Origin: a virus
Lineage: Duplodnaviria; Caudoviricetes
Reading direction: 5' to 3' (one strand)
Length of the DNA stretch: 64,000 bases
IMG/VR virus record: IMGVR_UViG_3300013121_000017
Coordinates: 96,001 to 160,000 of that record
The notes beneath the pieces were generated by a model. That model was given only the letters and a program-made list of their open reading frames with translations, had not been told where the DNA came from and ran no database searches. A program made the translations under genes and the position numbers. This document shows positions 6,423 to 57,842 of this stretch, piece after piece; the first letter of the stretch is position 1; each line of letters begins with the position of its first letter.

Positions 6423-8792
6423 ATGGCGATTCTAAGGGGTTTTCCGCCGTCGAACACAATCAGCCCGTCAGTGCGTATCGCCGAGAGCGATCTCAGCTTT
6501 ATCGCACCGGAGCAGTCATTCCACCGTGCTGGTTTGGTCGGGTTCGCGTCGAAGGGTCCAATCAACAGCCCGACGACGATTGCAACTCAGCGTCAACTGA
6601 ACACGGTCTTCGGCTACCCGCACCCTGAAGTTGGTGACCCGTACCTGATCTACGCCGCGTCCCAGTACCTGCTGATCGCGAACGAACTGTTCGTGGTCCG
6701 CGTTGCTGACGTTGACCCGGTGTCGGATGAGCAAGCCACGACCGCGTCTGTGGACGTGCTGGCTGCCGGTTCGATCATCGACATCTTCTCGAACACAAAC
6801 GGCCCGTACAGCTTCACGGCTGACAGCTTCTTCCGCTGGAGACTGAACGGTGCGTTGAACCACAAGACCCTGGTCGTGTTGGCCGACGCAAACCGTCCCG
6901 CACCTGACACTGGCAACCCGTGGACCACTGTTGACCTCGTCGCAGAACTGAACTCTCAGGTTGACGCCGAGAACGATGGCGTCGAGTTCTACGTCAAGGG
7001 TTCCGGTGCGTCCGCCAAGGTCGGCTTCCGCACAACCTGGGCATACGGCCCGCAGGCCCAACTCGAACTGGTTTCGGTTCAGAGTGACGCCTACACGGTC
7101 ATCGGCATCGGTACGAGCATGACAGTCGGCGAAGTCGTCGGCGACACTGACCGCTACCCGAACGATGGATACACGCTCCAGAACGTCTGGAATTTCACCG
7201 GCTTGACCGGAATGTTCCTGAATGTTGTGGTGGATGGTACTGACAACGTCTTGATTGACGATGTCGTCCAGACCATCGACCTGAGCAACCTTGAAGGGGC
7301 ATCGTGGAACGGTACGCAGGTCGTACAAGAAATCAATGACCAGATCGCAACCCTGCCGGGTGGCTTCGAGGCAGCCCTTGTTGGCTTCAACATCGTCCTC
7401 AGAACTCTGCACAAGGGTCGGGACGCACGCATCCTCGTCAAGAGCGATTCGTCCGCCGACGCTGTACTCGGCCTTCCGAACACGACCGGCGTGGGCGACA
7501 GCCCGCTGGGTGTGACTGGCGATCCGGCCATCTACACCTTCGGTCGGGTTGACGGTGCTGAGAACACCACTGGCCAAGTCACCTTCACGATCACGGCTGA
7601 GTCGCCGGGCATCGAAGGCAACAACACAAGCGTCCTCATCAAGAACGACACCCTCCAGGGTACGTTCCAGATCGAGGTCTACAACAACGGCGTCCAGATG
7701 GAAGCCTGGGGTAACCTGACGAAGGATCAGTCGTCTCGCTTCTACGTCGAGACGTTCCTGGCCCTGGTTTCGGACTTCATCCGGGTCACTGACAACACCG
7801 CTGTTGGCGCACCGCCGGCTCCAACCGCCCTCACGGGCTTGGCTCTGTCGGGCGGCTCGGACGGAATTCCGAGTGATCCTGACAAACAGGACGAACTTTT
7901 GATCGGCAACCTACTCGGTTATACAGGCATCTACACCTTCTCCGAGCCAGAGCAGATCGACATCGACCTGATCGCAGTGCCGGGCCACGCCAGCACGTCC
8001 ATCGTGATGGCCCTGCTCGACCTGTGCCAGAACGTCCGTCAGGACTGCCTCGCCATCATCGATCCGCCGTTCGGTCTGACCGTTTCGGAAATCATCGCAT
8101 GGCAGAACGGATCGCACCCGCTGAACCTGACAAGGTTCGATAGCGACTTCGGCGCTCTGTACTGGCCGTGGGTCAAGATGCGGGACAATTACAACCGGGT
8201 TGACGTGTGGGTTCCGCCGTCTGGCTCGGTCATGGCGACCTACGCACGCAGCGACTTCTTGTCGGCTCCGTGGTTCGCACCAGCCGGTTTGACCCGTGGT
8301 GTGGTCCCCGGCATCACCGACGTGTTCAACCGGCCAACGCTGGGCGAACGCGACCTGATGTACGGCTACCGCAACTGTATCAACCCGATTGTGCAGTTCG
8401 CCGACGTGGACGGCTTCGTCATCTGGGGTCAGAAGACGCTTCAGCGTACTCCGACCGCTCTTGACCGCGTCAACGTCAGGAGACTCCTCTTCGTCTGCGA
8501 GAAGAGAATCAGGGTCGCCTCTCGGTCGCTTCTGTTCGATCCGCATGACGACATCTTCCGCGCGAAGTTCGTGGCTCTGGCCTCGGAGATCCTGCGTGAG
8601 ATTCAGGTTGGACGTGGTATCCACGCCTTCATCGTCAAGGCTGACACCGAACTGAACACGCCAGACGTGATTGACCGCAACGAGTTCCGCGCTAGGATCG
8701 GTATCCAGCCGGTGAGGGCCGCAGAATTCATGTTCATCGAGTTCTCCGTCCACAGGACTGGAAGCTTCGCTGAAAACGCCAATACCTTCTAA
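6423..8792 (+). CDS. Tail sheath protein (gp18-like)
   Basis: SPSVRIAESDLS, GFASKGP, ALYWPW, PPSG, WFAPAG, WGQKTL, RVNVRRL motifs. Confidence 0.97.
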   Translation: MAILRGFPPSNTISPSVRIAESDLSFIAPEQSFHRAGLVGFASKGPINSPTTIATQRQLNTVFGYPHPEVGDPYLIYAASQYLLIANELFVVRVADVDPVSDEQATTASVDVLAAGSIIDIFSNTNGPYSFTADSFFRWRLNGALNHKTLVVLADANRPAPDTGNPWTTVDLVAELNSQVDAENDGVEFYVKGSGASAKVGFRTTWAYGPQAQLELVSVQSDAYTVIGIGTSMTVGEVVGDTDRYPNDGYTLQNVWNFTGLTGMFLNVVVDGTDNVLIDDVVQTIDLSNLEGASWNGTQVVQEINDQIATLPGGFEAALVGFNIVLRTLHKGRDARILVKSDSSADAVLGLPNTTGVGDSPLGVTGDPAIYTFGRVDGAENTTGQVTFTITAESPGIEGNNTSVLIKNDTLQGTFQIEVYNNGVQMEAWGNLTKDQSSRFYVETFLALVSDFIRVTDNTAVGAPPAPTALTGLALSGGSDGIPSDPDKQDELLIGNLLGYTGIYTFSEPEQIDIDLIAVPGHASTSIVMALLDLCQNVRQDCLAIIDPPFGLTVSEIIAWQNGSHPLNLTRFDSDFGALYWPWVKMRDNYNRVDVWVPPSGSVMATYARSDFLSAPWFAPAGLTRGVVPGITDVFNRPTLGERDLMYGYRNCINPIVQFADVDGFVIWGQKTLQRTPTALDRVNVRRLLFVCEKRIRVASRSLLFDPHDDIFRAKFVALASEILREIQVGRGIHAFIVKADTELNTPDVIDRNEFRARIGIQPVRAAEFMFIEFSVHRTGSFAENANTF

Positions 8793-8830
8793 GCGAAGGG
8801 GAACCAAGGATCTCAACTAAGAGGTGAACT

Positions 8831-9394
8831 ATGGCACAGAATATGGGTATGGGACAGCTTGCCTTGGGCGGCGTCGTCTTCAAGAGGAAGTTCCGTTGGA
8901 CTTTCAAGGTTGACAGCTTCTGCGGTGGCAAGAGCGTCCCCGAGCATTTCGTGAAGCTCGCTTCGCGTCCGAACCTGTCGATTGAGGAAACAGAAATCAA
9001 CTTCCTCAACGGCAAGATGTGGATTCCAGGCAAGGGTTCGTGGGAAACCATCACGGTTACTTACTACGACGTGGCCGGCTCTGCTGGCGGCGACATGGCC
9101 TTGATCTACTCTTGGATCGCGACCGTGTACAACTTCCTCGATTCGACCACGCTGACGCAGTCCTCGAAGAGGGCTGACTACGGTGGTCGTGGCACTCTGA
9201 CACTGTTCGATGGTTGCGGTACGCCAATGGAAGAGTGGACTCTGCGGCACATGTGGCCACAGGCCGTCAACTTCGGCGAACTCGACTACTCGTCCTCGGA
9301 AGAATGTACGGTCGAATTGACCCTGCGTTACTCTGAAGTCGATTACCAGAACATGTGCGGTGGAACGCCGACTGCATGCTGCGAAGGCTGCTAA
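8831..9394 (+). CDS. Tail tube protein 1 (gp19-like)
   Basis: Follows the sheath; WETITVTYYD and WPQAVNFGELDYSS motifs. Confidence 0.9.
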   Translation: MAQNMGMGQLALGGVVFKRKFRWTFKVDSFCGGKSVPEHFVKLASRPNLSIEETEINFLNGKMWIPGKGSWETITVTYYDVAGSAGGDMALIYSWIATVYNFLDSTTLTQSSKRADYGGRGTLTLFDGCGTPMEEWTLRHMWPQAVNFGELDYSSSEECTVELTLRYSEVDYQNMCGGTPTACCEGC

Positions 9395-48881: not shown

Positions 48882-48912
48882 TTGACGAGAAAAGAAATCG
48901 GCGTACTATATA
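48882..48912 (+). promoter_or_regulatory. Promoter of the tRNA locus
   Basis: TTGACG-N16-TACTAT, with an overlapping TATATA. Confidence 0.7.
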
Positions 48913-48969
48913 AGGTAACGCGGCAGAGGCTGCGGAATTTTCACCAACACAGAATTAGACAACACGACC

Positions 48970-49059
48970 ATGCACGTTTTCTCACTCAGTCTGTTTAGCT
49001 TGTCGTTGTCGTCCCTTTATCTGGGACGAGACGCTGGTTCTACGGACATGAGTGGGTGA
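48970..49059 (+). CDS. Putative attenuator leader peptide MHVFSLSLFSLSLSSLYLGRDAGSTDMSG
   Basis: 15 consecutive F/S/L/Y codons with varied synonymous choices; sits between a promoter and a terminator. Confidence 0.75.
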   Translation: MHVFSLSLFSLSLSSLYLGRDAGSTDMSG

Positions 49060-49086
49060 ACAAAAACACCACACGACTGAAACCCG

Positions 49087-49129
49087 AAGACCCGCGTCAT
49101 CAGACTGAAGACGCGGGTCTTTTTGTTTT
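49087..49129 (+). terminator. Attenuator terminator hairpin
   Basis: AAGACCCGCGTC / GACGCGGGTCTT 12-bp stem followed by TTTGTTTT. Confidence 0.9.
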
Positions 49130-49144
49130 CATGGGGGTGCTTCG

Positions 49145-49480
49145 ATGTGGTTCAAGAGGTCGATCAGGATCTTGGTGAACGAGGGCAAGCGGGACGAGGC
49201 CAACTACAAGTTGTGCTTGAAGTTCCACATCAGCATGGCACATGCTGACGACATCATCAGGGAACTGGACCAGTACCAGTGGCATGTACGCCGAATCCCA
49301 GGAATGGACGACTTCATCAAGAAGACGCTGGCGGGTGATCCGAAGGCGTTGGTGACGGTTGTAAAGCGAATCAGGGAAGTGACTGCTTGGGGCTTGCTGG
49401 AATGCAAGCTGTACATGGAGGACGTAACGAAGGGCTTGAAGCCGTGGCCGGTCCCGCTCAATGAAGAGGGGGAAAATTGA
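49145..49480 (+). CDS. Protein with ribosomal L7/L12 C-terminal-like domain
   Basis: VVKRIREVTAWGLLECKLYME resembles the VIK.VRE.TGLGLKEAK..VE motif. Confidence 0.6.
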   Translation: MWFKRSIRILVNEGKRDEANYKLCLKFHISMAHADDIIRELDQYQWHVRRIPGMDDFIKKTLAGDPKALVTVVKRIREVTAWGLLECKLYMEDVTKGLKPWPVPLNEEGEN

Positions 49481-49649: not shown

Positions 49650-49733
49650 GCGGGAGTGGCGGAACTGGTAGACGCGCAAGCCTCAGAAGCTTGTGGCCGC
49701 AAGGCCGTGTGGGTTCGAGTCCCACCTCCCGCA
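49650..49733 (+). tRNA. tRNA-Leu(CAG)
   Basis: Class II cloverleaf; caagc-ctCAGaa-gcttg. Confidence 0.95.
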
Positions 49734-49741
49734 CTGACAAG

Positions 49742-49771
49742 CTCGACTCTGTCGAGTCTGTTCTTTGACAA
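49742..49771 (+). promoter_or_regulatory. boxB-like hairpin plus boxA-like antitermination signal
   Basis: CTCGAC-TCT-GTCGAG followed by TGTTCTTTGACAA. Confidence 0.6.
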
Positions 49772-49789
49772 CTGGGTGAGACAACAAAA

Positions 49790-49875
49790 CGGTCCAGGGT
49801 CGTCAAGGTCCGGGCTAGATAGACGGGGGTGCTACCCCCGCACTACAACCCTGATCTTGACGATCCAAAGGACTG
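49790..49875 (+). ncRNA. Unassigned long-hairpin RNA
   Basis: GGGTCGTCAAGGTC / GATCTTGACGATCC stem, outer CGGTCC/GGACTG, inner GGGGG/CCCCC hairpin. Confidence 0.45.
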
Positions 49876-49877
49876 GC

Positions 49878-50132
49878 ATGAACATGAACGTTTGGTACGA
49901 GTACAAGAGGATGAAGGACGCTTTCCCTATGGGAACAGAAGTCATCCTGCGGCTGAAACCAATCGAAGAATACTTCGAGTTGATTTGGGCTGCCGATGCG
50001 GTTGGAAGAGTGATCGGGTACAATATCCACAAGTCACTCGTCATCGTGGAATTCGACAACGGAGCAGTGATGCACGTTGGAATGAAACTTCTCGAAAAGA
50101 CCGCGAACCTGATGCTTGATATGGAGATCTAG
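49878..50132 (+). CDS. Small hypothetical protein, paralog of 53716
   Basis: W..Y.RMK..FP.G..V...VIGY pattern shared with 53716. Confidence 0.6.
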   Translation: MNMNVWYEYKRMKDAFPMGTEVILRLKPIEEYFELIWAADAVGRVIGYNIHKSLVIVEFDNGAVMHVGMKLLEKTANLMLDMEI

Positions 50133-50245
50133 TCATGTACCAACAAGAGTTCTCCAACGGCGACACCCATACGCCGTGGTTAATGTTCCTCATCGTCCTG
50201 ATCGCACTGTCGTGTGGTTTCGGACTGATGTTACTTGGGTGATAT

Positions 50246-50329
50246 GCCGAGATGGCGGAACTGGTAGACGCAGCAGACTCAAAATCTGCCGCTCGAAAGA
50301 GCGTGAGGGTTCGACTCCCTCTCTCGGCA
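50246..50329 (+). tRNA. tRNA-Leu(CAA)
   Basis: gcaga-ctCAAaa-tctgc; long variable arm. Confidence 0.95.
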
Positions 50330-50331
50330 CT

Positions 50332-50481
50332 GGTCGGATGACAGTAGGACTACATTGCAAAACTGCTGGCCGAAAGGCCGTTCGGGTGCAAGTCCCGACG
50401 CTGCTCGCAAGGGTGGTGTGGTGAAACAGCAGACACGGCAGTCAGGGGAAACCCATGAAGTCTTGCGACTTTTTGCCGACC
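50332..50481 (+). ncRNA. Circularly permuted tRNA-mimic RNA E1 (YrlA/Y-RNA-like)
   Basis: Order: variable arm, T arm, acceptor closed by GCAA, D arm; enclosed by GGTCGG/CCGACC and GTAGGACT/AGTCTTGC. Confidence 0.65.
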
Positions 50482-50486
50482 TAAAT

Positions 50487-50570
50487 GCGGATGTGATGGA
50501 ACTGGTAGACTTCCAAGGTTGAGAGCCTTGGGCCTTTAGTGGCGTGTGGGTTCGAGTCCCACCATCCGCA
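50487..50570 (+). tRNA. tRNA-Leu(GAG)
   Basis: caagg-ttGAGag-ccttg. Confidence 0.92.
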
Positions 50571-50576
50571 CTGCTT

Positions 50577-50658
50577 GTATCGGTTGGGCATTGGCAAGCC
50601 CCCCTGGCTGTAACCCAGGTGCTTTCGAGCTTTAGAGGTTCGACTCCTCTCCGATACA
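50577..50658 (+). tRNA. tRNA-Tyr(GTA)
   Basis: cctgg-ctGTAac-ccagg. Confidence 0.88.
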
Positions 50659-50660
50659 CT

Positions 50661-50718
50661 CGACCGGGCCTGGATGCCCAACGGATTGGTGCGGGTTCGA
50701 TTCCCAAGCCGGTCGCCA
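50661..50718 (+). ncRNA. Miniature tRNA-like element ending in CCA
   Basis: CGACCGG/CCGGTCG-CCA; TTCGATT loop; no 7-nt anticodon loop. Confidence 0.5.
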
Positions 50719-50720
50719 AC

Positions 50721-50802
50721 GGGTGAGATGTTCCAATGGTGGGACACCAGACTGTAAATCTGGCGCGTTTACGCACGGTGGGTTCGATCCCCACCTCACC
50801 CA
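50721..50802 (+). tRNA. tRNA-Tyr(GTA)
   Basis: ccaga-ctGTAaa-tctgg. Confidence 0.92.
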
Positions 50803-50805
50803 CTT

Positions 50806-50887
50806 GGGTCTGCTAGTGCTGTGGGAAGCCAGTCTGGCTGTAAACCAGACGCTTTCGAGATAGGGGGTTCGATTCCTCACAGACCCA
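50806..50887 (+). tRNA. tRNA-Tyr(GTA), atypical D arm
   Basis: tctgg-ctGTAaa-ccaga. Confidence 0.8.
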
Positions 50888-50893
50888 CTGAAT

Positions 50894-50966
50894 GCCTACC
50901 AAGCTAATCTAGTGAAAGCGGATGCCTGAAGAGCATCATAGCCCGGAGCGTAACCGGGGGTAGGCA
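50894..50966 (+). tRNA. tRNA-Phe(GAA), atypical T loop
   Basis: gatgc-ctGAAga-gcatc; T loop AGCGTAA. Confidence 0.8.
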
Positions 50967-50968
50967 CT

Positions 50969-51095
50969 GGCCGGTATGCAGTAGGGGATTACATGAGCAA
51001 CAGCGACTCGGGGGGTTTCAAAGCTCCCTTGTGCCGGTGCGATTCCGGTGTCCTGGGGTAAAACCTGGGGTTATCTCCTGCAATTTTGATCGGCC
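50969..51095 (+). ncRNA. tRNA-mimic RNA E2 (same family as E1)
   Basis: GGCCGGT/ATCGGCC and GTAGGGGAT/ATCTCCTGC stems; T-like arm GCCGG-TGCGATT-CCGGT. Confidence 0.55.
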
Positions 51096-51099
51096 TTAT

Positions 51100-51172
51100 G
51101 GACAGCAAGCTAATCTGGTGAAAGCGGAGGTCTGAAAAGCCTCATAGCCCGGATCGAAACCGGGGCTGTCCA
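51100..51172 (+). tRNA. tRNA-Phe(GAA)
   Basis: gaggt-ctGAAaa-gcctc; T loop ATCGAAA. Confidence 0.85.
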
Positions 51173-51400
51173 CTACTTCTTCTGAACGAGCTTGCGAAGG
51201 TCGGAAGAAGACTTGGAAGGATTCCTGATGATCTCCTTGACGAGATCGTCGCCCTTGCCGTTGCTGACTTTTGACCAGACAGATAGCAACGTGGTACGGT
51301 TGTACTTCTCGGCGAGGCCGCGAATGCAGTTGACGAAAGACTCAACGCACTCAACGTCGCTGCTTGAAGTTTCGGTGAGGAACTGGTCGAATGTGTCCAT
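51173..51400 (-). CDS. Small protein antisense within the tRNA array
   Basis: MDTFDQFLTE start; TACATA 6 nt upstream; fills the gap between tRNAs. Confidence 0.65.
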   Translation of the reverse strand: MDTFDQFLTETSSSDVECVESFVNCIRGLAEKYNRTTLLSVWSKVSNGKGDDLVKEIIRNPSKSSSDLRKLVQKK

Positions 51401-51420
51401 GAAGGATATGTAGTTTGCAC

Positions 51421-51509
51421 GGATAGGTTTGCACATTGGCAAGTCAGACTCTTTGCTAAAGAGTTCCACCCTGAAAGGGGTGGTGCAGGTTCGACTCCTG
51501 TCCTATCCG
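51421..51509 (+). tRNA. tRNA-Ser(GCT)
   Basis: actct-ttGCTaa-agagt; long variable arm; G73. Confidence 0.9.
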
Positions 51510-51512
51510 CTT

Positions 51513-51599
51513 GGAAGAGTTGGTACATTGGCAAGTCCGCTCGTCTCGAAAACGAGTCTGCCTGAAAGGGCAGTGCAGGTTCGACTCCTGTCTCTTCCG
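51513..51599 (+). tRNA. tRNA-Ser(CGA)
   Basis: ctcgt-ctCGAaa-acgag; G73. Confidence 0.9.
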
Positions 51600-51602
51600 C
51601 TT

Positions 51603-51791
51603 ATGGTCGAGTACGAGATCAAGAAAGGCAGCAAGCACCAGAACAGGTCTTGCCGCTTCTGTGGTGGTAGAATGACACCGGGAAGGAAGTTCGTCCTCGA
51701 CCCGGAAGTCTTCGATGGGCATCTGCCCGCGATCTTCCATCCGCAGTGTAGAACAGCCTGGGTTAAGCGTGGCAAGAAGCCGCTGAAGTGA
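51603..51791 (+). CDS. Small Cys/His protein
   Basis: CRFCG...HPQC. Confidence 0.5.
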   Translation: MVEYEIKKGSKHQNRSCRFCGGRMTPGRKFVLDPEVFDGHLPAIFHPQCRTAWVKRGKKPLK

Positions 51792-51793
51792 AT

Positions 51794-51880
51794 GGAGCAG
51801 TTTGCACATTGGCAAGTCAGTTCGCTTGGAAAGCGAATACACCCGAAAGGGTGTTGCAGGTTCGACTCCTGTCTGCTCCG
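51794..51880 (+). tRNA. tRNA-Ser(GGA)
   Basis: ttcgc-ttGGAaa-gcgaa; G73. Confidence 0.9.
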
Positions 51881-51883
51881 CTT

Positions 51884-51953
51884 GATGGCCCCCGGATGGT
51901 GATTCGGTGGCAGATGCCAAAGCCGTAAGTCGGGTTCGACTCCCTGGTCATCA
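51884..51953 (+). ncRNA. Degenerate tRNA-like element
   Basis: GATGGCC/GGTCATC-A acceptor; GGG-TTCGACT-CCC T arm; no canonical anticodon arm. Confidence 0.45.
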
Positions 51954-51976
51954 CCTAGCACGAAAGCGAGAATGAA

Positions 51977-52306
51977 ATGGATCTGATCAAGTACGACGAC
52001 TTCGCCAAGCTGGACCTTCGGGTCTGCACCATCAAGGAGGCGTCAGCCGTCGAAGGGGCCGACAAGCTCGTCCTGCTCAAGCTGGACGATGGGACCGAGG
52101 CAGGCCGGCAGATCGTGGCCGGCATCAAGAAGCACTACTCGCCCGAGACGCTCATCGGCACACAAGTGATCGTCGTGGCGAACTTGGAACCGCGCAAGCT
52201 GCGTGGGATCGAGAGCCAGGGCATGTTGCTGGCAGCCAGCAACGGCGAGGAACTGGCCCTGTTGCAGCCGCAGAAGCTGATCGCGGCAGGCAGCAAGGTC
52301 GGATAA
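51977..52306 (+). CDS. tRNA-binding OB-fold protein (Trbp111/CsaA/MetRS C-terminal type)
   Basis: DDFAKLDLRV...GADKL...RQIVAGI...NLEPRKLRGIESQGMLLAA. Confidence 0.92.
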   Translation: MDLIKYDDFAKLDLRVCTIKEASAVEGADKLVLLKLDDGTEAGRQIVAGIKKHYSPETLIGTQVIVVANLEPRKLRGIESQGMLLAASNGEELALLQPQKLIAAGSKVG

Positions 52307-52312
52307 CGACCC

Positions 52313-52399
52313 GGAAGGTTTGGTACATTGGCAAGTCCGATGGTCTTGAAAACCATTACACGGGAAACCGTGTTGTCGGTTCGACTCCGACACCTTCCG
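52313..52399 (+). tRNA. tRNA-Ser(TGA)
   Basis: atggt-ctTGAaa-accat; G73. Confidence 0.9.
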
Positions 52400-52401
52400 C
52401 T

Positions 52402-52554
52402 ATGACAGACGAGGACTTCGAGATCGGTGGCTGCGGCTGCCTCGCAATACTCCTGCTGGTCGCGTTGACCATCGGGATCTGCGTCTGGAAGTACCACAAT
52501 CCGACGCCTCCAAAGCGTCATGTTCAGGTTGAAGTGTGCAGGATGACATGTTAA
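52402..52554 (+). CDS. Small single-pass membrane protein
   Basis: Hydrophobic LAILLLVALTIGICVW. Confidence 0.5.
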   Translation: MTDEDFEIGGCGCLAILLLVALTIGICVWKYHNPTPPKRHVQVEVCRMTC

Positions 52555-52787
52555 GGGTCATCGAGTGTGTCGAATCAAGGTACGACGTGAAGCCATTTGA
52601 AGGTTACACGTTCGACCAGATTCTTCAACTCCTTCAAAAGAACGAGGCACAAACGCTGAACGACCCGACAACGGGCGAGAAGGGAGTTTACATTCCCACG
52701 CCACGTCAACAACCGGGTGTCAAGCAGATCGCGGCAATGGTTCCACACAGGGACCGAAACAGAACTGTTACTTACGGGTGTGACTAA
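52548..52787 (+). CDS. Hypothetical protein
   Basis: Overlaps the previous stop. Confidence 0.5.
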   Translation: MLRVIECVESRYDVKPFEGYTFDQILQLLQKNEAQTLNDPTTGEKGVYIPTPRQQPGVKQIAAMVPHRDRNRTVTYGCD

Positions 52788-52874
52788 CGGAGATGGCTGG
52801 TATGCCGGGCGGCTTTATAGTATCCGATTGCGGCCTATGCCAGACTGTGTCAGGTTCGATTCCTACCACGCCCA
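52776..52874 (+). ncRNA. tRNA-like RNA with extended anticodon arm (copy 1)
   Basis: GGGTGTG/CACGCCC-A acceptor; TTCGATT loop; CCGGGCGGCTTT...CCGATTGCGG. Confidence 0.6.
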
Positions 52875-52877
52875 CTT

Positions 52878-52976
52878 GAGTGCGACTCTGGAGATGCTGG
52901 ACACACCGGGCGGCTTTTCATGGTTGCCGATTGCGGTTCCTGTTCGGCTGAGTTGGTTCGACTCCAACAGCACTCA
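52878..52976 (+). ncRNA. tRNA-like RNA with extended anticodon arm (copy 2)
   Basis: GAGTGC/GCACTC-A acceptor; GTTGG-TTCGACT-CCAAC; same internal motif as copy 1. Confidence 0.6.
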
Positions 52977-52980
52977 CTAT

Positions 52981-53139
52981 GTTCCGTTGGTGTAAAAAGG
53001 CGACGGATAGCGTCTGTCGCAGTCACTTGTAAACTGCCAGCACAGGAGGGTCGCGAACCTCCCCCGCAGTGTACCTTGGGACTCAGCACGGCTCCTCTGG
53101 AGGGAGACAGGGCAGGTGCGAACCCTGCACGGGACACCA
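52981..53139 (+). ncRNA. tRNA-like RNA with a large structured insertion and encoded CCA
   Basis: GTTCCGT/ACGGGAC-ACCA; GCAGG-TGCGAAC-CCTGC; about 80 extra nt in the D region. Confidence 0.55.
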
Positions 53140-53153
53140 TACAAAGGCAAGTT

Positions 53154-53324
53154 ATGAGCGTGATTCAACGCTGTGAGATCAAGCGGCACGAACCCTTCAA
53201 AGGTGATGCGTGTCCTGAATGCGGGAAGATCCAGGCGAACAGCCAGTTCGCCGGATGGCTTGTCATGGGATTCATCTTCCTGGCAGGCGCGTTGGCGTGG
53301 ATGTTCCTGGCCAAGAAGTTCTGA
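53154..53324 (+). CDS. Small membrane protein with CxxC
   Basis: CPECG followed by a hydrophobic helix. Confidence 0.5.
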   Translation: MSVIQRCEIKRHEPFKGDACPECGKIQANSQFAGWLVMGFIFLAGALAWMFLAKKF

Positions 53325-53328
53325 TTGA

Positions 53329-53400
53329 CCCACTCTGGTGTAGTGGTCTGCACATGATGCTGAAAACATCGGGGTCTGAGTTCGATTCTCAGGGGTGGGA
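53329..53400 (+). tRNA. tRNA-Phe(GAA)
   Basis: tgatg-ctGAAaa-catcg. Confidence 0.85.
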
Positions 53401-53402
53401 CT

Positions 53403-53530
53403 GACCGGATGACGACAGGGATTACACTCTCGAAAAGTGTTCTACGCAAGTAGATGTAGGTTCGATTCCTACCGTCGCAAGACGAGGTGGATATTGGCTT
53501 GCCACTACGTCTCTGACATTTTTGCCGGTC
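53403..53530 (+). ncRNA. Circularly permuted tRNA-mimic RNA E3 retaining a Ser(CGA) anticodon arm
   Basis: GACCGG/CCGGTC; ACACT-CTCGAAA-AGTGT; variable arm; T arm; CGTC-GCAA-GACG; D-like arm. Confidence 0.65.
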
Positions 53531-53536
53531 TAATTT

Positions 53537-53662
53537 GACGGGGTAGCTTAACGGTAGAGCGCTAAAAGCGATCTCAGCAACTTGTTGCCCGAAAGGGATG
53601 ATCCGTTGGGATTACATTCCTCTGAAAAAGGAGAGGTACTGGTTCGACTCCAGTCCCCGTCA
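53537..53662 (+). ncRNA. tRNA-Phe(GAA) carrying the E1-E3 module as an insertion (E4)
   Basis: Normal acceptor, D and T arms; about 50-nt insert between the D and anticodon arms. Confidence 0.7.
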
Positions 53663-53715
53663 CTCAAAACAGATGCCCGCAACCTCCACTACATAACATG
53701 TAATTAGGAGGAACT

Positions 53716-53949
53716 ATGATCAACCCGTGGGCAGACCTAGCAAAGATGAAACGTGACTTCCCCATCGGCGTTCTCGTCGTTGTTGACGAGGATGTCACAG
53801 ATGGCGCGGACGACATCGGAGGAATGATCCTCAAAGTCATTGGCTACGAGATCGAGCAAGGATGGCTAGAACTGGTCAGTGAGAACGGCAGAGAATTCGT
53901 TCTCTACCCAGACGAGATCACAAGACACTATGAAAGCCAAGTGTGCTAG
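53716..53949 (+). CDS. Small hypothetical protein, paralog of 49878
   Basis: AGGAGG SD. Confidence 0.7.
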   Translation: MINPWADLAKMKRDFPIGVLVVVDEDVTDGADDIGGMILKVIGYEIEQGWLELVSENGREFVLYPDEITRHYESQVC

Positions 53950-53956
53950 ATAGTGC

Positions 53957-54400
53957 ATGGACTTCCGACACTGGCTAGAAGCAACTGAACAGCCCGAACC
54001 GAATCCGCTCCCGCCCGAAGCAAAGATCGAGCGGTCGCAGGGCGACGGCTGGAAGATCACGACCCCTTACGGCTACATCGACTACCGCCACAACCCAGAA
54101 GACGGCAACAACGAGATCTGGTGGGTGGAATCGAAAGTACGCGGCAAGGGCTATGGCAAGAAGCTCGTTGACCTAATGCAAATGGCCCACCCCGCAGCCA
54201 GCATCGGTTGGGGAGTGACGACGCCGGAAGGTAAAGACCTCCGCGACAGTTGGCACAAGAAGAACCCAGGAGTTGAAGCATACAACGGCGCGTTTGAGGG
54301 ACAGTTCGACCCCTCGGGCAACAACTACGGAGAAGACGAATCGGACGAAGACTTCGAGGATGAAGACGAGGACTGGGAGGACGAAGATGATGACTTTTGA
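53957..54400 (+). CDS. GNAT-like acetyltransferase with acidic tail
   Basis: VRGKGYGKKL acetyl-CoA motif; TAGATA 4 nt upstream. Confidence 0.55.
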   Translation: MDFRHWLEATEQPEPNPLPPEAKIERSQGDGWKITTPYGYIDYRHNPEDGNNEIWWVESKVRGKGYGKKLVDLMQMAHPAASIGWGVTTPEGKDLRDSWHKKNPGVEAYNGAFEGQFDPSGNNYGEDESDEDFEDEDEDWEDEDDDF

Positions 54401-54629
54401 CCAGTTCTTGGATGAGAAGACCGCCGACCTGAGATGGCCAGGAGACTGTAACGCCAAAACACTCGACCGCAAGGCTGAAACCGACCGCTGCTACATCGAG
54501 CCGGGCCACAGCCACGACAAGGTCAAAGATCGCCAGTTCGGCACTACAGTAACAGTGATCCCCAGACACAAGGCCGTAAACCCGTACACTTGCAAAGCGA
54601 TCATAAGGGACTTGCAGAGGAGTTGTTGA
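54387..54629 (+). CDS. HicA-like RNase-fold protein
   Basis: GHSHDKV...TVIPRH..VNPYTCKAIIRDL. Confidence 0.55.
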   Translation: MMTFDQFLDEKTADLRWPGDCNAKTLDRKAETDRCYIEPGHSHDKVKDRQFGTTVTVIPRHKAVNPYTCKAIIRDLQRSC

Positions 54630-54823
54630 TGATTCCCCCTGGAACCATAGTCGAAGCAATTCACGGCTGGTGGAAGGGGACTTACGGCGAAGTGGAAGAG
54701 CCGGACAAAGACAACCCCGAAGAGAGTTCGATAGTCCTCTTCCCGTGTAGAATCATCAGGGACGGCAAACTGTACACGGAAGCCAGAGTCAACATGCCGA
54801 ACGCTTGGCTGAGGTTTCAGTGA
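54629..54823 (+). CDS. Small hypothetical protein
   Basis: GAGGAG SD; TGATG overlap. Confidence 0.55.
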   Translation: MIPPGTIVEAIHGWWKGTYGEVEEPDKDNPEESSIVLFPCRIIRDGKLYTEARVNMPNAWLRFQ

Positions 54824-55161
54824 ACATCCTTTTTGTCTGTTCGCGAAACAAGAAACGAAGCCCGACAGCCGAGACAATTTTCTCGGGAGTCAAAGGCATA
54901 GAAGTCGCGTCGGCAGGGACGGCCAAGGACGCCGAAGAACAAGTGACCCCAGAACACCTCGAATGGGCGAACCTGATCTTCGTGATGGAGTCTTACCATA
55001 AGGTGAGACTCACCGAGATGTACGGAAGACATCTCAACGGCAAACGGATCGTGTGCCTGAACATCAAGGATCGATTCGAGTACATGGATAACGAACTGGT
55101 CGCTTTACTGCGAGCCAGAGTGACTGCGGTTGTGGCGGAACTGGTAGACGCGCAAGCTTGA
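54820..55161 (+). CDS. Low-molecular-weight protein tyrosine phosphatase-like protein
   Basis: LFVCSRNKKRSPTAE P-loop; ASAGT; WANLIFVME. Confidence 0.85.
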   Translation: MNILFVCSRNKKRSPTAETIFSGVKGIEVASAGTAKDAEEQVTPEHLEWANLIFVMESYHKVRLTEMYGRHLNGKRIVCLNIKDRFEYMDNELVALLRARVTAVVAELVDAQA

Positions 55162-55209
55162 GGGGCTTGTGGCCGCAAGGCCGTGTGGGTTCGACTCCCA
55201 CCAACCGCA
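55126..55209 (+). tRNA. tRNA-Leu(GAG)
   Basis: caagc-ttGAGgg-gcttg. Confidence 0.93.
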
Positions 55210-55211
55210 CT

Positions 55212-55466
55212 ATGAAGAATGCGAAGACTGAAAAACAGAAGAAGAAGGAAGAGAGACGCAGGAACAAAGGCACAATCGCCGTGTACGCACTGTGCGACTG
55301 CGGCTGTTGTACCGCGAAGATGCGGTTCAGGTCTGAAAAATCAGCCCTGGAAGCGTTCAAGGCTGCCGGCTTGAAGAACTCGGCCACAATCACGGATGAT
55401 CAGGGTACGGTTCATGAAGGCATCGACACGTTCTACGGGTTGAGCCTGACAGATACGCGGATGTGA
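55212..55466 (+). CDS. Hypothetical protein
   Basis: ORF between two tRNAs; CDCGCC. Confidence 0.55.
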   Translation: MKNAKTEKQKKKEERRRNKGTIAVYALCDCGCCTAKMRFRSEKSALEAFKAAGLKNSATITDDQGTVHEGIDTFYGLSLTDTRM

Positions 55467-55540
55467 TGGAATTGGTAGACTTCCGGTCCTCAGAAGGCCG
55501 GGCCTTTAGTGGCGTGTGGGTTCGAGTCCCACCATCCGCA
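55457..55540 (+). tRNA. tRNA-Leu(CAG)
   Basis: cggtc-ctCAGaa-ggccg. Confidence 0.9.
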
Positions 55541-55555
55541 CTACTAGATAGGGTC

Positions 55556-56338
55556 ATGAACTTCAAGCAATGGATCGAGTCCCTGGAACTCATGGCCCTG
55601 CGGTCGCACCTCAAAAACCCGTCGATGGACATTGCGGGCCACGGCTGGGATCTACTGAGTTGGCGCGGCGGCAAAGCAATCATGAAGCGTCTGGGTATCG
55701 ACCCAGGCAAGTTCAGGACTGCGATGGAAGAAGGCGAGGAAGAGTTCTACACGATGGCCGACCGAATCGGCAAGGGCATGTCCCGTGATGAACAAGAAGA
55801 CTTCCTGGCCTACATGAACCAACACAACCCAGGCGACGTGCCAACACACTCGCTGATGGACCTGCAATCACAAAGAGGACGCAAGGGCTATCTGCCGCCG
55901 ACAACTTGGCTAATCCACTTCAGCGATGACGCCGAGAGCGTGGCTGACGAAGGGTTGACACAGGGCCAAGGTGACATCGACAAATTAGCCCTCACAGTTC
56001 ACCAAAGCAAATACGAGAAGCAGTACGGCGGGTACAACTTCGCCTTCACTGCCGATGGGCGACACGCCCGACAGGCAGCACGAAGCGGTAAGTATGGACA
56101 GAACGCTGTGATGTTTCAAGCATCCGGCATCCCGGTTTACCACTACAGTGACGAGGAAGATCAAGTGGTAGTCTGGGGCAAGGATGTGCCGGCGAGCAGA
56201 ATGGTCTTGCTCACCAATGACGGCGGGGACTGGACTGTCCGTAGCCGCAAAGGAGGGAGAGATCCCTTCACAGGAGATTTCGACAAAACGGTTGCCTGGG
56301 TCATGAAGAACTACAACCAGTACAGAAGGGTTCTATGA
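55556..56338 (+). CDS. Hypothetical late protein
   Basis: TAGATA 5 nt upstream; starts MNFKQWIESLE. Confidence 0.75.
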   Translation: MNFKQWIESLELMALRSHLKNPSMDIAGHGWDLLSWRGGKAIMKRLGIDPGKFRTAMEEGEEEFYTMADRIGKGMSRDEQEDFLAYMNQHNPGDVPTHSLMDLQSQRGRKGYLPPTTWLIHFSDDAESVADEGLTQGQGDIDKLALTVHQSKYEKQYGGYNFAFTADGRHARQAARSGKYGQNAVMFQASGIPVYHYSDEEDQVVVWGKDVPASRMVLLTNDGGDWTVRSRKGGRDPFTGDFDKTVAWVMKNYNQYRRVL

Positions 56339-56826
56339 CCTCGCAAGAGAAATACCGGAAAGCAATCGCCGACCGACCGACCAACGAAGAACTCAAATAC
56401 TGGGCGACCCTGGAACACAGAGCCGACGAGATTCAGAAGAAGGTGTTCGACGCTGACCTCGAAGAACGCAACGACCGATTCAAGATCTGGTTCGAGGAGT
56501 ACAAGCGTCAGCGGGTTTGTATGAGCAACGGCGTCGAGTTCATGGACTGGAAGAAACAGTTCGATGAAAGCGTCAGAATTATGTCCAGCCTGGACCCCGA
56601 CAAGATCCAGATCAATGTACTGCTGGCATGCTTCGAGGCCGACGAACAAGCCGGCGTAGCCGCCCTAAAATACGTTCAGGAGAACGAGCCTGAGATCCCC
56701 GACCCCGAGATGGTCGAACAACAGGCCCAGGCACGAAAGTGGATGGATGACATGGAAAAGGCTGACCAATTACACCGTGCAAGGATTGAGGCTGTGAGAT
56801 GCGGTTTGATGTACGACGGAGATTGA
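56335..56826 (+). CDS. Hypothetical protein
   Basis: ATGA overlap. Confidence 0.65.
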   Translation: MTSQEKYRKAIADRPTNEELKYWATLEHRADEIQKKVFDADLEERNDRFKIWFEEYKRQRVCMSNGVEFMDWKKQFDESVRIMSSLDPDKIQINVLLACFEADEQAGVAALKYVQENEPEIPDPEMVEQQAQARKWMDDMEKADQLHRARIEAVRCGLMYDGD

Positions 56827-56830
56827 TTAC

Positions 56831-56912
56831 GGCCCTGTGGTGGAACAGGTAGACACACTCCTCTTAAAAGGGAACGCCAATAGGCATGCGGGTTCGACTC
56901 CCGCCGGGGCTA
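56831..56912 (+). tRNA. tRNA-Leu(TAA)
   Basis: ctcct-ctTAAaa-gggaa. Confidence 0.9.
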
Positions 56913-56966
56913 CTAAAAATCCTGGGTTAAGGCGTGTATCAGTACACCCTTTTCACAGGAGAGACG

Positions 56967-57170
56967 ATGAGATTTCAAGATTGGGTTGGAAAGAGAAGTG
57001 AGTTTGGAAGAGAACTGCGGGATGAAAGAATCCAGCAGTTGACCGATCAGTGGTGGCAGGCTAAAGTCGATCAAGACTACCGGCGTGCCAAGTCCATCGA
57101 GGACGAACTGAACCTGAAGTATGACACCGTCGTTGATATGGGCGGGTCTTCAATCTTCGGGGATTTGTGA
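56967..57170 (+). CDS. Small hypothetical protein
   Basis: AGGAG SD; starts MRFQDWV. Confidence 0.6.
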   Translation: MRFQDWVGKRSEFGRELRDERIQQLTDQWWQAKVDQDYRRAKSIEDELNLKYDTVVDMGGSSIFGDL

Positions 57171-57171
57171 T

Positions 57172-57252
57172 GGCCATGTGGCGAAACGGTATACGCGCTG
57201 GTCTTAGAAGCCAGTCCCGAAAGGGTTGAGGGTTCGACTCCCTCCTTGGTCA
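57172..57252 (+). tRNA. tRNA-Leu(TAG)
   Basis: ctggt-ctTAGaa-gccag. Confidence 0.9.
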
Positions 57253-57265
57253 CTTAGAATGCAAT

Positions 57266-57806: not shown

Positions 57807-57810
57807 CGTA

Positions 57811-57842
57811 GGGGCGTCCAATTAGGACGCCCTTTTTCTTTT
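57811..57842 (+). terminator. Rho-independent terminator ending the tRNA locus
   Basis: GGGCGTCC-AATTA-GGACGCCC-TTTTTCTTTT. Confidence 0.85.

What the first reader, a model, noticed from the sequence alone, without database searches (positions are those of the whole stretch)
48882..49129. Leader-peptide attenuator that senses exactly the tRNAs the downstream array supplies
Seen: promoter at 48882-48909, then a 29-codon ORF (48970-49059). Codons 4-18 are TTC TCA CTC AGT CTG TTT AGC TTG TCG TTG TCG TCC CTT TAT CTG: only Phe/Ser/Leu/Tyr, with 12 different codons covering all four Ser isoacceptors, three Leu isoacceptors, Phe and Tyr. The 17 tRNAs downstream are only Leu, Ser, Tyr and Phe. Mutually exclusive helices are present: 1:2 CGTT-G-TCGTCCC/GGGACGAGACG (49004-49033); 2:3 antiterminator GAGACGCTGGTT (49028-49039) with the terminator 5' arm (49089-49101); 3:4 terminator with U-tract (49087-49129). 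The terminator loop CAGACTGA is also complementary to leader TCAGTCTG. Known: trp/his/leu/ilv attenuators use this geometry for biosynthetic operons, and phage tRNAs can offset host tRNA-cleaving defences. Inference: stalling when host tRNAs are cleaved or uncharged switches on replacement tRNAs, an on-demand anti-defence circuit that I do not know to be described. Caveat: the leader ATG has no clear SD.
Basis: partly seen in the sequence, partly recalled or inferred. Interest (0 to 1): 0.95.

Follow-up and report, generated by a model that had tools for sequence, protein, structure and literature searches.

The report
Codon-sensing switch for phage tRNA genes
A giant phage puts its block of leucine, serine, tyrosine and phenylalanine tRNA genes behind a tiny test gene written in those same codons and wired to a transcription stop signal, so it probably makes these tRNAs only when ribosomes read those codons slowly, a control known for amino-acid genes that I found in no paper on tRNA genes.

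Summary
A promoter, a 29-codon ORF (codons 4-18 all Phe/Ser/Leu/Tyr), an antiterminator and a terminator precede an 8-kb Leu/Ser/Tyr/Phe tRNA operon in a T4-like huge phage. The cassette occurs in 23 of 26 related loci with such tRNAs and 2 of 135 without. Frame, promoter and antiterminator are conserved, with compensatory changes. In three phages with several tRNA blocks, 13 blocks each have a leader matching their own tRNAs (mean 0.57-0.84 against 0.08-0.12 for other blocks). This works like a multivalent trp/ilv-type attenuator whose output is tRNA; translation and switching are untested. Two corrections. 'Exactly' is too strong: the block's Leu(TAA) and Leu(TAG) tRNAs are not sampled. The anti-defence reading is unproven: this record is about 52% complete, and complete relatives (533-595 kb) carry about 50 tRNAs, with this block as one module. 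A general tRNA-shortage feedback loop is therefore likelier than a reply to one nuclease. I found no published case, but this scan has noted the same design in many other phage genomes.

The parts
48882..48909 (+). sigma70-like promoter (-35, 16-nt spacer, -10); predicted start near 48916
   Evidence: both hexamers conserved in four close relatives; 23 of 31 leaders have a 9/12 or better site within 130 nt against 1.9 expected
48970..49059 (+). 29-codon leader ORF
   Evidence: ATG and frame conserved, length differences in multiples of 3; no SD here
48979..49023 (+). control tract, codons 4-18: 2 Phe, 6 Ser, 6 Leu, 1 Tyr; 12 distinct codons
49004..49033 (+). 1:2 (protector) hairpin; in naked RNA part of a long hairpin spanning about 48977-49061
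   Evidence: not the default fold in all relatives
49028..49045 (+). antiterminator 5' strand (codons 20-25), pairs with about 49084-49101 including the terminator 5' arm
   Evidence: same register in L007, L337, L338, with a compensatory change in L337
49086..49129 (+). intrinsic terminator (attenuator): stem 49086-49122, U-tract to 49129
   Evidence: compensatory pair in L337
49145..49647 (+). two small ORFs (111 and 56 aa) at the head of the read-through transcript; the first has a weak, below-cutoff ribosomal L7/L12 C-terminal match
   Evidence: homologues at the same place in relatives
49650..57253 (+). tRNA array: 7 Leu (CAG x2, GAG x2, CAA, TAA, TAG), 4 Ser, 3 Tyr, 2-3 Phe, with tRNA-like elements and small ORFs between
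49760..49771 (+). rRNA-type boxA-like antitermination site, the only copy in the 262-kb record
   Evidence: 12 of 31 cassettes have one within 3 kb downstream on the sense strand, 0 antisense, 0 upstream
51977..52306 (+). stand-alone tRNA-binding domain protein (PF01588, Trbp111/CsaA/MetRS-beta type) inside the operon
   Evidence: E 2.6e-29; same place in relatives
57810..57842 (+). intrinsic terminator, likely end of the operon
   Evidence: the first hairpin better than -17 kcal/mol with a U-tract after the attenuator

Best explanation
This is a ribosome-mediated transcription attenuator that gates one block of phage tRNA genes and works as a feedback loop on tRNA supply. Host RNA polymerase starts near 48916. 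A ribosome translates the leader. If Leu, Ser, Tyr and Phe codons are decoded fast, the ribosome runs over codons 20-25 to the stop, the antiterminator strand is covered, the terminator forms and transcription ends near 49125. If any sampled aminoacyl-tRNA is scarce, the ribosome lags in codons 4-18, strand 49028-49045 captures the terminator 5' arm, and polymerase reads on, picks up Nus factors at boxA and transcribes the 8.7-kb operon. The new tRNAs restore decoding and shut the operon again. Shown: anatomy, conservation, block-by-block codon matching, predicted alternative folds. Inferred: translation of the leader, switching, boxA function. Unknown: the natural cause of shortage (host tRNA breakdown in infection, defence nucleases, or late-infection demand). 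The block is probably one of several that share out the amino acids.
For: Leader plus terminator in 23 of 26 SbcD-linked loci with these tRNAs, 2 of 135 without (loci are partly redundant). Own-block match against other blocks of the same genome: G002 0.57 vs 0.08 (best of 24 permutations), G006 0.63 vs 0.12 (best of 720), G008 0.84 vs 0.10 (best of 6). L203 gains two Cys tRNAs and two Cys codons; G001 begins with Arg, Cys, Gly tRNAs and its leader has those codons. All four Ser isoacceptor classes in 16 of 20 leaders; 76 classes against 61-63 +/- 3 simulated, 0 of 5000 (leaders are homologous, so not independent). This fits sensing of tRNA species more than of amino acids. The best antiterminator strand starts just after the control tract (codons 14-21 in most), beats shuffles at p<=0.05 in 15 of 30, and the terminator arm is paired upstream 0.64 (stalled) vs 0.14 (ribosome at stop) on average. 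Compensatory changes in close relatives. Promoters 23 of 31 vs 1.9 expected and SD-like sites in most relatives. boxA. Same cassette in GenBank LR756511.1.
Against: No translation or transcript-end data. This leader has no SD although 69% of the phage's confident starts do (18% have none). In this copy the antiterminator duplex is not significant alone (p = 0.10) and the finished RNA favours the terminator even with a stalled ribosome (0.93), so the switch must be kinetic. The stalled-versus-stop contrast is partly built in by masking. Synonymous and non-synonymous changes between related leaders are about equally common. Some leaders hold codons whose tRNAs are not in their block. Some arrays have no leader that I could find (G004, amber-suppressor clusters). 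Matching leaders in multi-block genomes were picked by eye among 1-3 candidate ORFs before each terminator.
Confidence: 0.85

Rival explanations
1. A dedicated anti-defence circuit: the block and its leader are tuned to host nucleases that cut long-variable-arm (class II) tRNAs (Leu, Ser, Tyr) and tRNA-Phe, and the switch supplies replacements only when that defence fires. This shares the mechanism above and differs in trigger and purpose.
For: The Leu/Ser/Tyr/Phe set is kept as a separate block across the clade. [quoted passage not shown] The record also holds an RNA ligase and a CCA/poly(A) polymerase-family gene. tRNA-like possible decoys sit in the array.
Against: The record is 52% complete. 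Complete or near-complete relatives have 48-56 tRNA matches, with other blocks for other amino acids, and in G008, G002 and G006 those blocks have their own leaders. Short-arm tRNA-Leu is no commoner here (34 of 91) than in general phage arrays (27 of 50). The bacterial Schlafens described prefer tRNA-Lys or cut broadly. Host and its defences unknown.
Confidence: 0.3
2. A translation-coupling or timing device: the terminator is read through whenever translation is slow or absent for any reason (starved or dormant host, antibiotics, shut-off), and codon identity is secondary.
For: In L007 and L337 the naked nascent RNA already folds into the antiterminator; mean arm capture is 0.50 naked and 0.64 stalled. 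The Anabaena trn operon is induced by general translational stress (PMC10272220).
Against: It does not explain block-specific codon content or the sampling of all isoacceptors. In this copy the naked RNA prefers 1:2 (0.36).
Confidence: 0.08
3. Amino-acid-starvation sensor as in biosynthetic operons: uncharged tRNA is the signal and the useful products are the small proteins of the operon.
For: Same geometry as trp/leu/ilv attenuators (own knowledge); the operon holds several small ORFs, including a tRNA-binding protein.
Against: Leu, Ser, Tyr and Phe share no pathway; no biosynthetic gene was identified among the operon proteins scanned; no class II core or Tyr/Trp-type synthetase in the held half; many relatives have tRNAs directly behind the terminator.
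Confidence: 0.05
4. The ORF is a by-product of a pyrimidine-rich structured RNA or encodes a small hydrophobic peptide, and the terminator is constitutive.
For: The tract is T/C-rich and takes part in long hairpins; no SD.
Against: Only this frame is enriched, frame +2 usually has stops; leaders of other blocks are Thr/Gln/Ile-, Ala/Val/Gly- or Lys/His/Arg-rich and follow their blocks.
Confidence: 0.02

Closest known systems
Multivalent leader-peptide transcription attenuators of enterobacterial amino-acid operons (ilvGMEDA, thr, ilvBN; also trpL, hisL, leuL, pheL) - own knowledge
   Same: Promoter, short ORF with a tract of control codons, antiterminator strand just after the tract, terminator with U-tract some 60 nt after the stop; several amino acids sensed at once.
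   Different: Controls tRNA genes, not enzymes; lies in a phage; samples many isoacceptors rather than repeating a few codons; no Rfam family reaches its threshold (Leu_leader 23 bits against 50, terminator only).
pheM attenuator of E. coli pheST (phenylalanyl-tRNA synthetase) - own knowledge
   Same: A leader peptide senses supply of an aminoacyl-tRNA and controls a part of the translation machinery that restores it.
   Different: One amino acid; the output is the synthetase, not the tRNA.
Anabaena PCC 7120 trn operon and TrcR (PMC10272220)
   Same: A long tRNA operon that is silent until translation is stressed.
   Different: Control is by a ribbon-helix-helix repressor at the promoter, is not codon-specific, and lies on a megaplasmid.
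Phage tRNAs that offset tRNA-cutting defences: T5 tRNA-Tyr against retron-Eco7 (PMC11555353), T6 tRNA-Tyr amplification against Septu (PMC13096335), anticodon-loop variants (PMC10264068)
   Same: tRNA dose from the phage matters; tRNA-Tyr and the variable loop are known targets.
   Different: Dose is raised by a strong promoter or by gene amplification, not by a sensor; no nuclease is linked to this phage.
T-box riboswitches - own knowledge
   Same: Terminator/antiterminator choice set by tRNA state.
   Different: They bind uncharged tRNA directly, need no translation, and no T-box match was found.

Membership tests
Ribosome-mediated transcription attenuator (trpL/ilvL/pheM type) | Promoter upstream of a short leader ORF | tested here: met
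Ribosome-mediated transcription attenuator (trpL/ilvL/pheM type) | Control codons that match what the downstream genes supply | tested here: met
   15 of 15 here; block-specific matching in G002, G006, G008
Ribosome-mediated transcription attenuator (trpL/ilvL/pheM type) | Intrinsic terminator between leader and genes | tested here: met
   30 of 31 cassettes
Ribosome-mediated transcription attenuator (trpL/ilvL/pheM type) | Antiterminator that excludes the terminator, its 5' strand just after the control codons | tested here: met
   predicted folds only; compensatory change; p = 0.10 for this copy alone
Ribosome-mediated transcription attenuator (trpL/ilvL/pheM type) | 1:2 protector hairpin giving termination without translation | tested here: inconclusive
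   present here and in L338; naked RNA of L007 and L337 prefers the antiterminator
Ribosome-mediated transcription attenuator (trpL/ilvL/pheM type) | The leader is translated | not testable with these tools
   indirect only: conserved start and frame, SD in most relatives, none here
Ribosome-mediated transcription attenuator (trpL/ilvL/pheM type) | Read-through rises when the cognate aminoacyl-tRNA is scarce | not testable with these tools
   needs reporters or Term-seq
Amino-acid operon attenuators in the narrow sense (Rfam Leu/Trp/His/Thr/Phe leaders) | Regulated genes are biosynthetic enzymes or synthetases; sequence fits the family model | tested here: not met
   downstream genes are tRNAs and small ORFs; best Rfam score 23 against 50 bits
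T-box riboswitch | Stem I with specifier loop and T-box bulge | tested here: not met
   no match at gathering score or at E<=5
Phage anti-defence tRNAs | Phage tRNAs match the targets of a host nuclease and rescue infection | not testable with these tools
   host not identified
Phage anti-defence tRNAs | Sequence changes at the cut site relative to host tRNA | tested here: inconclusive
   only variable-arm length compared, no enrichment over other phage arrays; no host tRNAs to compare

The most novel reading that the evidence does not exclude
The phage watches host tRNA-cutting immunity through its own ribosome traffic: a codon checklist reports loss of any class II tRNA or tRNA-Phe and switches on nuclease-tolerant replacements and decoy tRNA mimics from one operon. 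It would be an inducible anti-defence system with no protein sensor, and leaders would be a readable record of which tRNA groups hosts attack together.
Probability: 0.3. Interest if true: 0.92.

Novelty: new variant of a known kind. Interest (0 to 1): 0.82.

Why it matters
Why phages carry tRNAs has been open for 50 years (PMC10264068). A codon-matched attenuator says the phage treats them as a reserve to be made when decoding slows, which favours replacement of lost tRNA over steady codon-bias compensation. It also makes the question testable: a leader-reporter fusion reads out which tRNAs run short during infection. It extends classical attenuation to stable RNA genes and to phages, and gives a compact multi-isoacceptor sensor for finding tRNA-cutting defences.

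Tried and rejected
RNA evidence: three wastewater metatranscriptomes hold the stretch, but only as low-depth contigs with cover as even as a DNA run, so they show neither expression nor termination. Host: not settled. Genome-collection hits were scattered MAG contigs; no cultured phage is close (best 29%); CTP synthase hits carry no organism names; the nearest named homologues of the tRNA-binding protein include Phycisphaerales/Planctomycetota among mixed taxa, a weak hint only. My recollection that retron Ec83 targets tRNA-Ser was wrong according to PMC11555353. Loss of the variable arm as an escape sign: no enrichment. No RtcB, Ro60/TROVE or PF00587/PF00579 synthetase in the held half; the T4 RNA ligase 1 search had no working control. 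'The phage has only four kinds of tRNA' was dropped once completeness and relatives were checked. The terminator-loop-to-leader pairing is absent in L007 and L337, but in L338 both partners changed together (one synonymous leader change), so it is kept as suggestive only. Five literature searches found no attenuator on tRNA genes; the library lacks most subscription papers. The 586-kb close relative could not be searched whole.

Full report
Setting. The window is bases 96001-160000 of a 261.7-kb viral record, linear and about 52% complete. It has tail sheath, T4 gp19-like tube, class II ribonucleotide reductase, SbcCD-like nuclease, CTP synthase and sigma-factor genes. Close relatives sit on contigs of 476 and 587 kb, so this is about half of a T4-like huge phage. 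Near-identical sequence occurs in wastewater and activated sludge runs. The host is unknown.

Observation. Codons 4-18 are 15 of 15 Phe/Ser/Leu/Tyr against a background of 0.21. ARAGORN finds 16 tRNAs at default (7 Leu, 4 Ser, 3 Tyr, 2 Phe) and three more Phe/Ser calls at a relaxed score. The held half of the genome has no other tRNA array. The leader lacks TTA and CTA, although the block encodes their tRNAs. No hairpin with a U-tract better than -17 kcal/mol lies between the attenuator and 57810, and the record's only boxA-like site lies just after the first tRNA. The block therefore reads as one stable-RNA operon of about 8.7 kb (inference).

Conservation. Using the neighbouring SbcD gene as anchor, 26 loci carry Leu/Ser/Tyr/Phe/Cys tRNAs and 23 have a matching ORF with a strong terminator; 2 of 135 loci without such tRNAs do. 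L139 was missed by that scan but has the cassette. The loci are partly redundant. Distant leaders share little sequence but keep the layout: short head, about 15 control codons, tail, stop, U-tract 45-75 nt later. Most have an SD-like site; this lineage does not, while 69% of the phage's confident starts do and 18% have none. A sigma70-like promoter precedes 23 of 31 leaders against 1.9 expected. Four close lineages keep the ATG and frame with length changes of 3 and 9 nt. In L337 a terminator pair changes on both sides and the antiterminator strand changes with it, closing a mismatch. GenBank record LR756511.1 (595 kb) has the same cassette before a Ser/Leu/Tyr block.

Covariation, the decisive test. 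L203 has two Cys tRNAs and two Cys codons in its leader; G001 starts with Arg, Cys and Gly tRNAs and its leader has these codons. G002 (332 kb) has four blocks with leaders (Tyr/Leu; Pro/Met/Phe; Val/Ala/Cys/Asp/Gly/Glu; Ile/Thr/Gln), G006 (463 kb) six and G008 (436 kb) three. Scoring codons 4-18 against each block's amino acids, the true pairing is the best of all permutations in each genome: 0.57 vs 0.08, 0.63 vs 0.12, 0.84 vs 0.10. I chose these leaders among one to three candidate ORFs in front of each terminator, and G002 and G006 leaders are homologous, so the independent cases number about nine types. The match is not exact: Tyr/Leu-block leaders keep Ser codons. Among Ser-rich leaders 16 of 20 sample all four Ser isoacceptor classes, more than random synonymous choice gives (76 vs 61-63 +/- 3). 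Biosynthetic attenuators mostly repeat a few codons (own knowledge), so this looks like a roll-call of tRNA species.

Switch. With a ribosome masking codons up to 14, the nascent RNA folds 49028-49045 onto the terminator 5' arm (-26.4 kcal/mol); with the ribosome at the stop the arm is free and the terminator forms. The same register appears in L007, L337 and L338. Over 30 cassettes the partner strand usually starts at codons 14-21 and beats shuffles in 15. Limits: here p = 0.10, the finished RNA favours the terminator, so the choice must be made during transcription, and in some relatives naked RNA also antiterminates, so the firm rule is 'ribosome at stop means terminate'.

What it is for. 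[quoted passage not shown] But the narrow set is at least partly an effect of incompleteness. G012 (533 kb, complete), G008 and LR756511.1 have 48-56 tRNA matches, with this block beside SbcD or apart and other amino acids elsewhere. I therefore put a general feedback loop on tRNA supply first, with defence nucleases as one likely trigger, and give the dedicated anti-defence version 0.3. Why these four amino acids stay together across the clade is unexplained.

Comparison and novelty. It works like a multivalent trp/ilv/pheM attenuator but is not a member of those Rfam families and not a T-box. The nearest regulated tRNA operon, Anabaena trn, uses a protein repressor. Five searches of open literature found no leader-peptide control of tRNA genes. 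This scan has reported the same design in other phages; I read those notes after my own covariation result and treat them as leads, not support. I rate it a new variant of a known mechanism, well supported by comparison, untested at the bench.

Noticed in passing
window 50332-50481, 50969-51095, 53403-53530, 53537-53662: Four tRNA-like elements share an 8-nt motif, have T arms and anticodon-like loops but abnormal 5' halves; homologues at the same places in G010. Earlier notes call them Y-RNA/YrlA-like permuted mimics; no Rfam match and no Ro60 gene in the held half.
   Followed up: partly
window 49760-49771: boxA-like site, unique in the record; in 12 of 31 cassettes, always downstream and on the sense strand.
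   Followed up: yes
genome 162859-162948 (2.9 kb beyond the window end); L338 3453-3541: tRNA with a TAT anticodon on a long-variable-arm body; in the close relative L338 it lies inside the Leu/Ser/Tyr/Phe block.
   Followed up: no
window 52776-52976 and 52981-53139: Further tRNA-shaped elements with T arms that ARAGORN does not call at default.
   Followed up: no
window 48986-48993 with 49101-49108; L338: Leader-to-terminator-loop complementarity kept through a double change in L338, absent in L007 and L337.
   Followed up: partly
window 49145-49480: First read-through ORF has a weak ribosomal L7/L12 C-terminal match (E 0.006, below cut-off).
   Followed up: no
window 54390-54629, 53957-54400, 54820-55128: HicA-like (E 1e-4), GNAT-like and low-molecular-weight phosphatase-like ORFs inside the tRNA operon.
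   Followed up: no
L007 11676-12240: A tRNA-Leu 5' half followed by a long insert with an HNH-like ORF, probably an intron-split tRNA (by eye).
   Followed up: no
G009, G007, L208, L209, G008 arrays: Many phage tRNA-Leu genes are 75-77 nt and lack the long variable arm (34 of 91 here, 27 of 50 in general arrays).
   Followed up: yes
G002 191.5-192.4 kb, G006 238.8-239.7 kb, G012 121.4 kb: Clusters of CTA-anticodon (amber suppressor-like) tRNAs with no leader found in front.
   Followed up: partly
L015 about 8540-9230; L335 17003-17446 and 18708-19205: Class II synthetase-like ORF near the array in relatives, and a ribosome recycling factor gene in L335.
   Followed up: no
genome 86.2 kb, 201.8 kb, 233.6 kb: RNA ligase (PF09414), CCA/poly(A) polymerase family gene and a tmRNA.
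   Followed up: no
L017 8900-9050: A 38-nt unit repeated about four times just upstream of the leader promoter, single in L015 and L016 (by eye).
   Followed up: no
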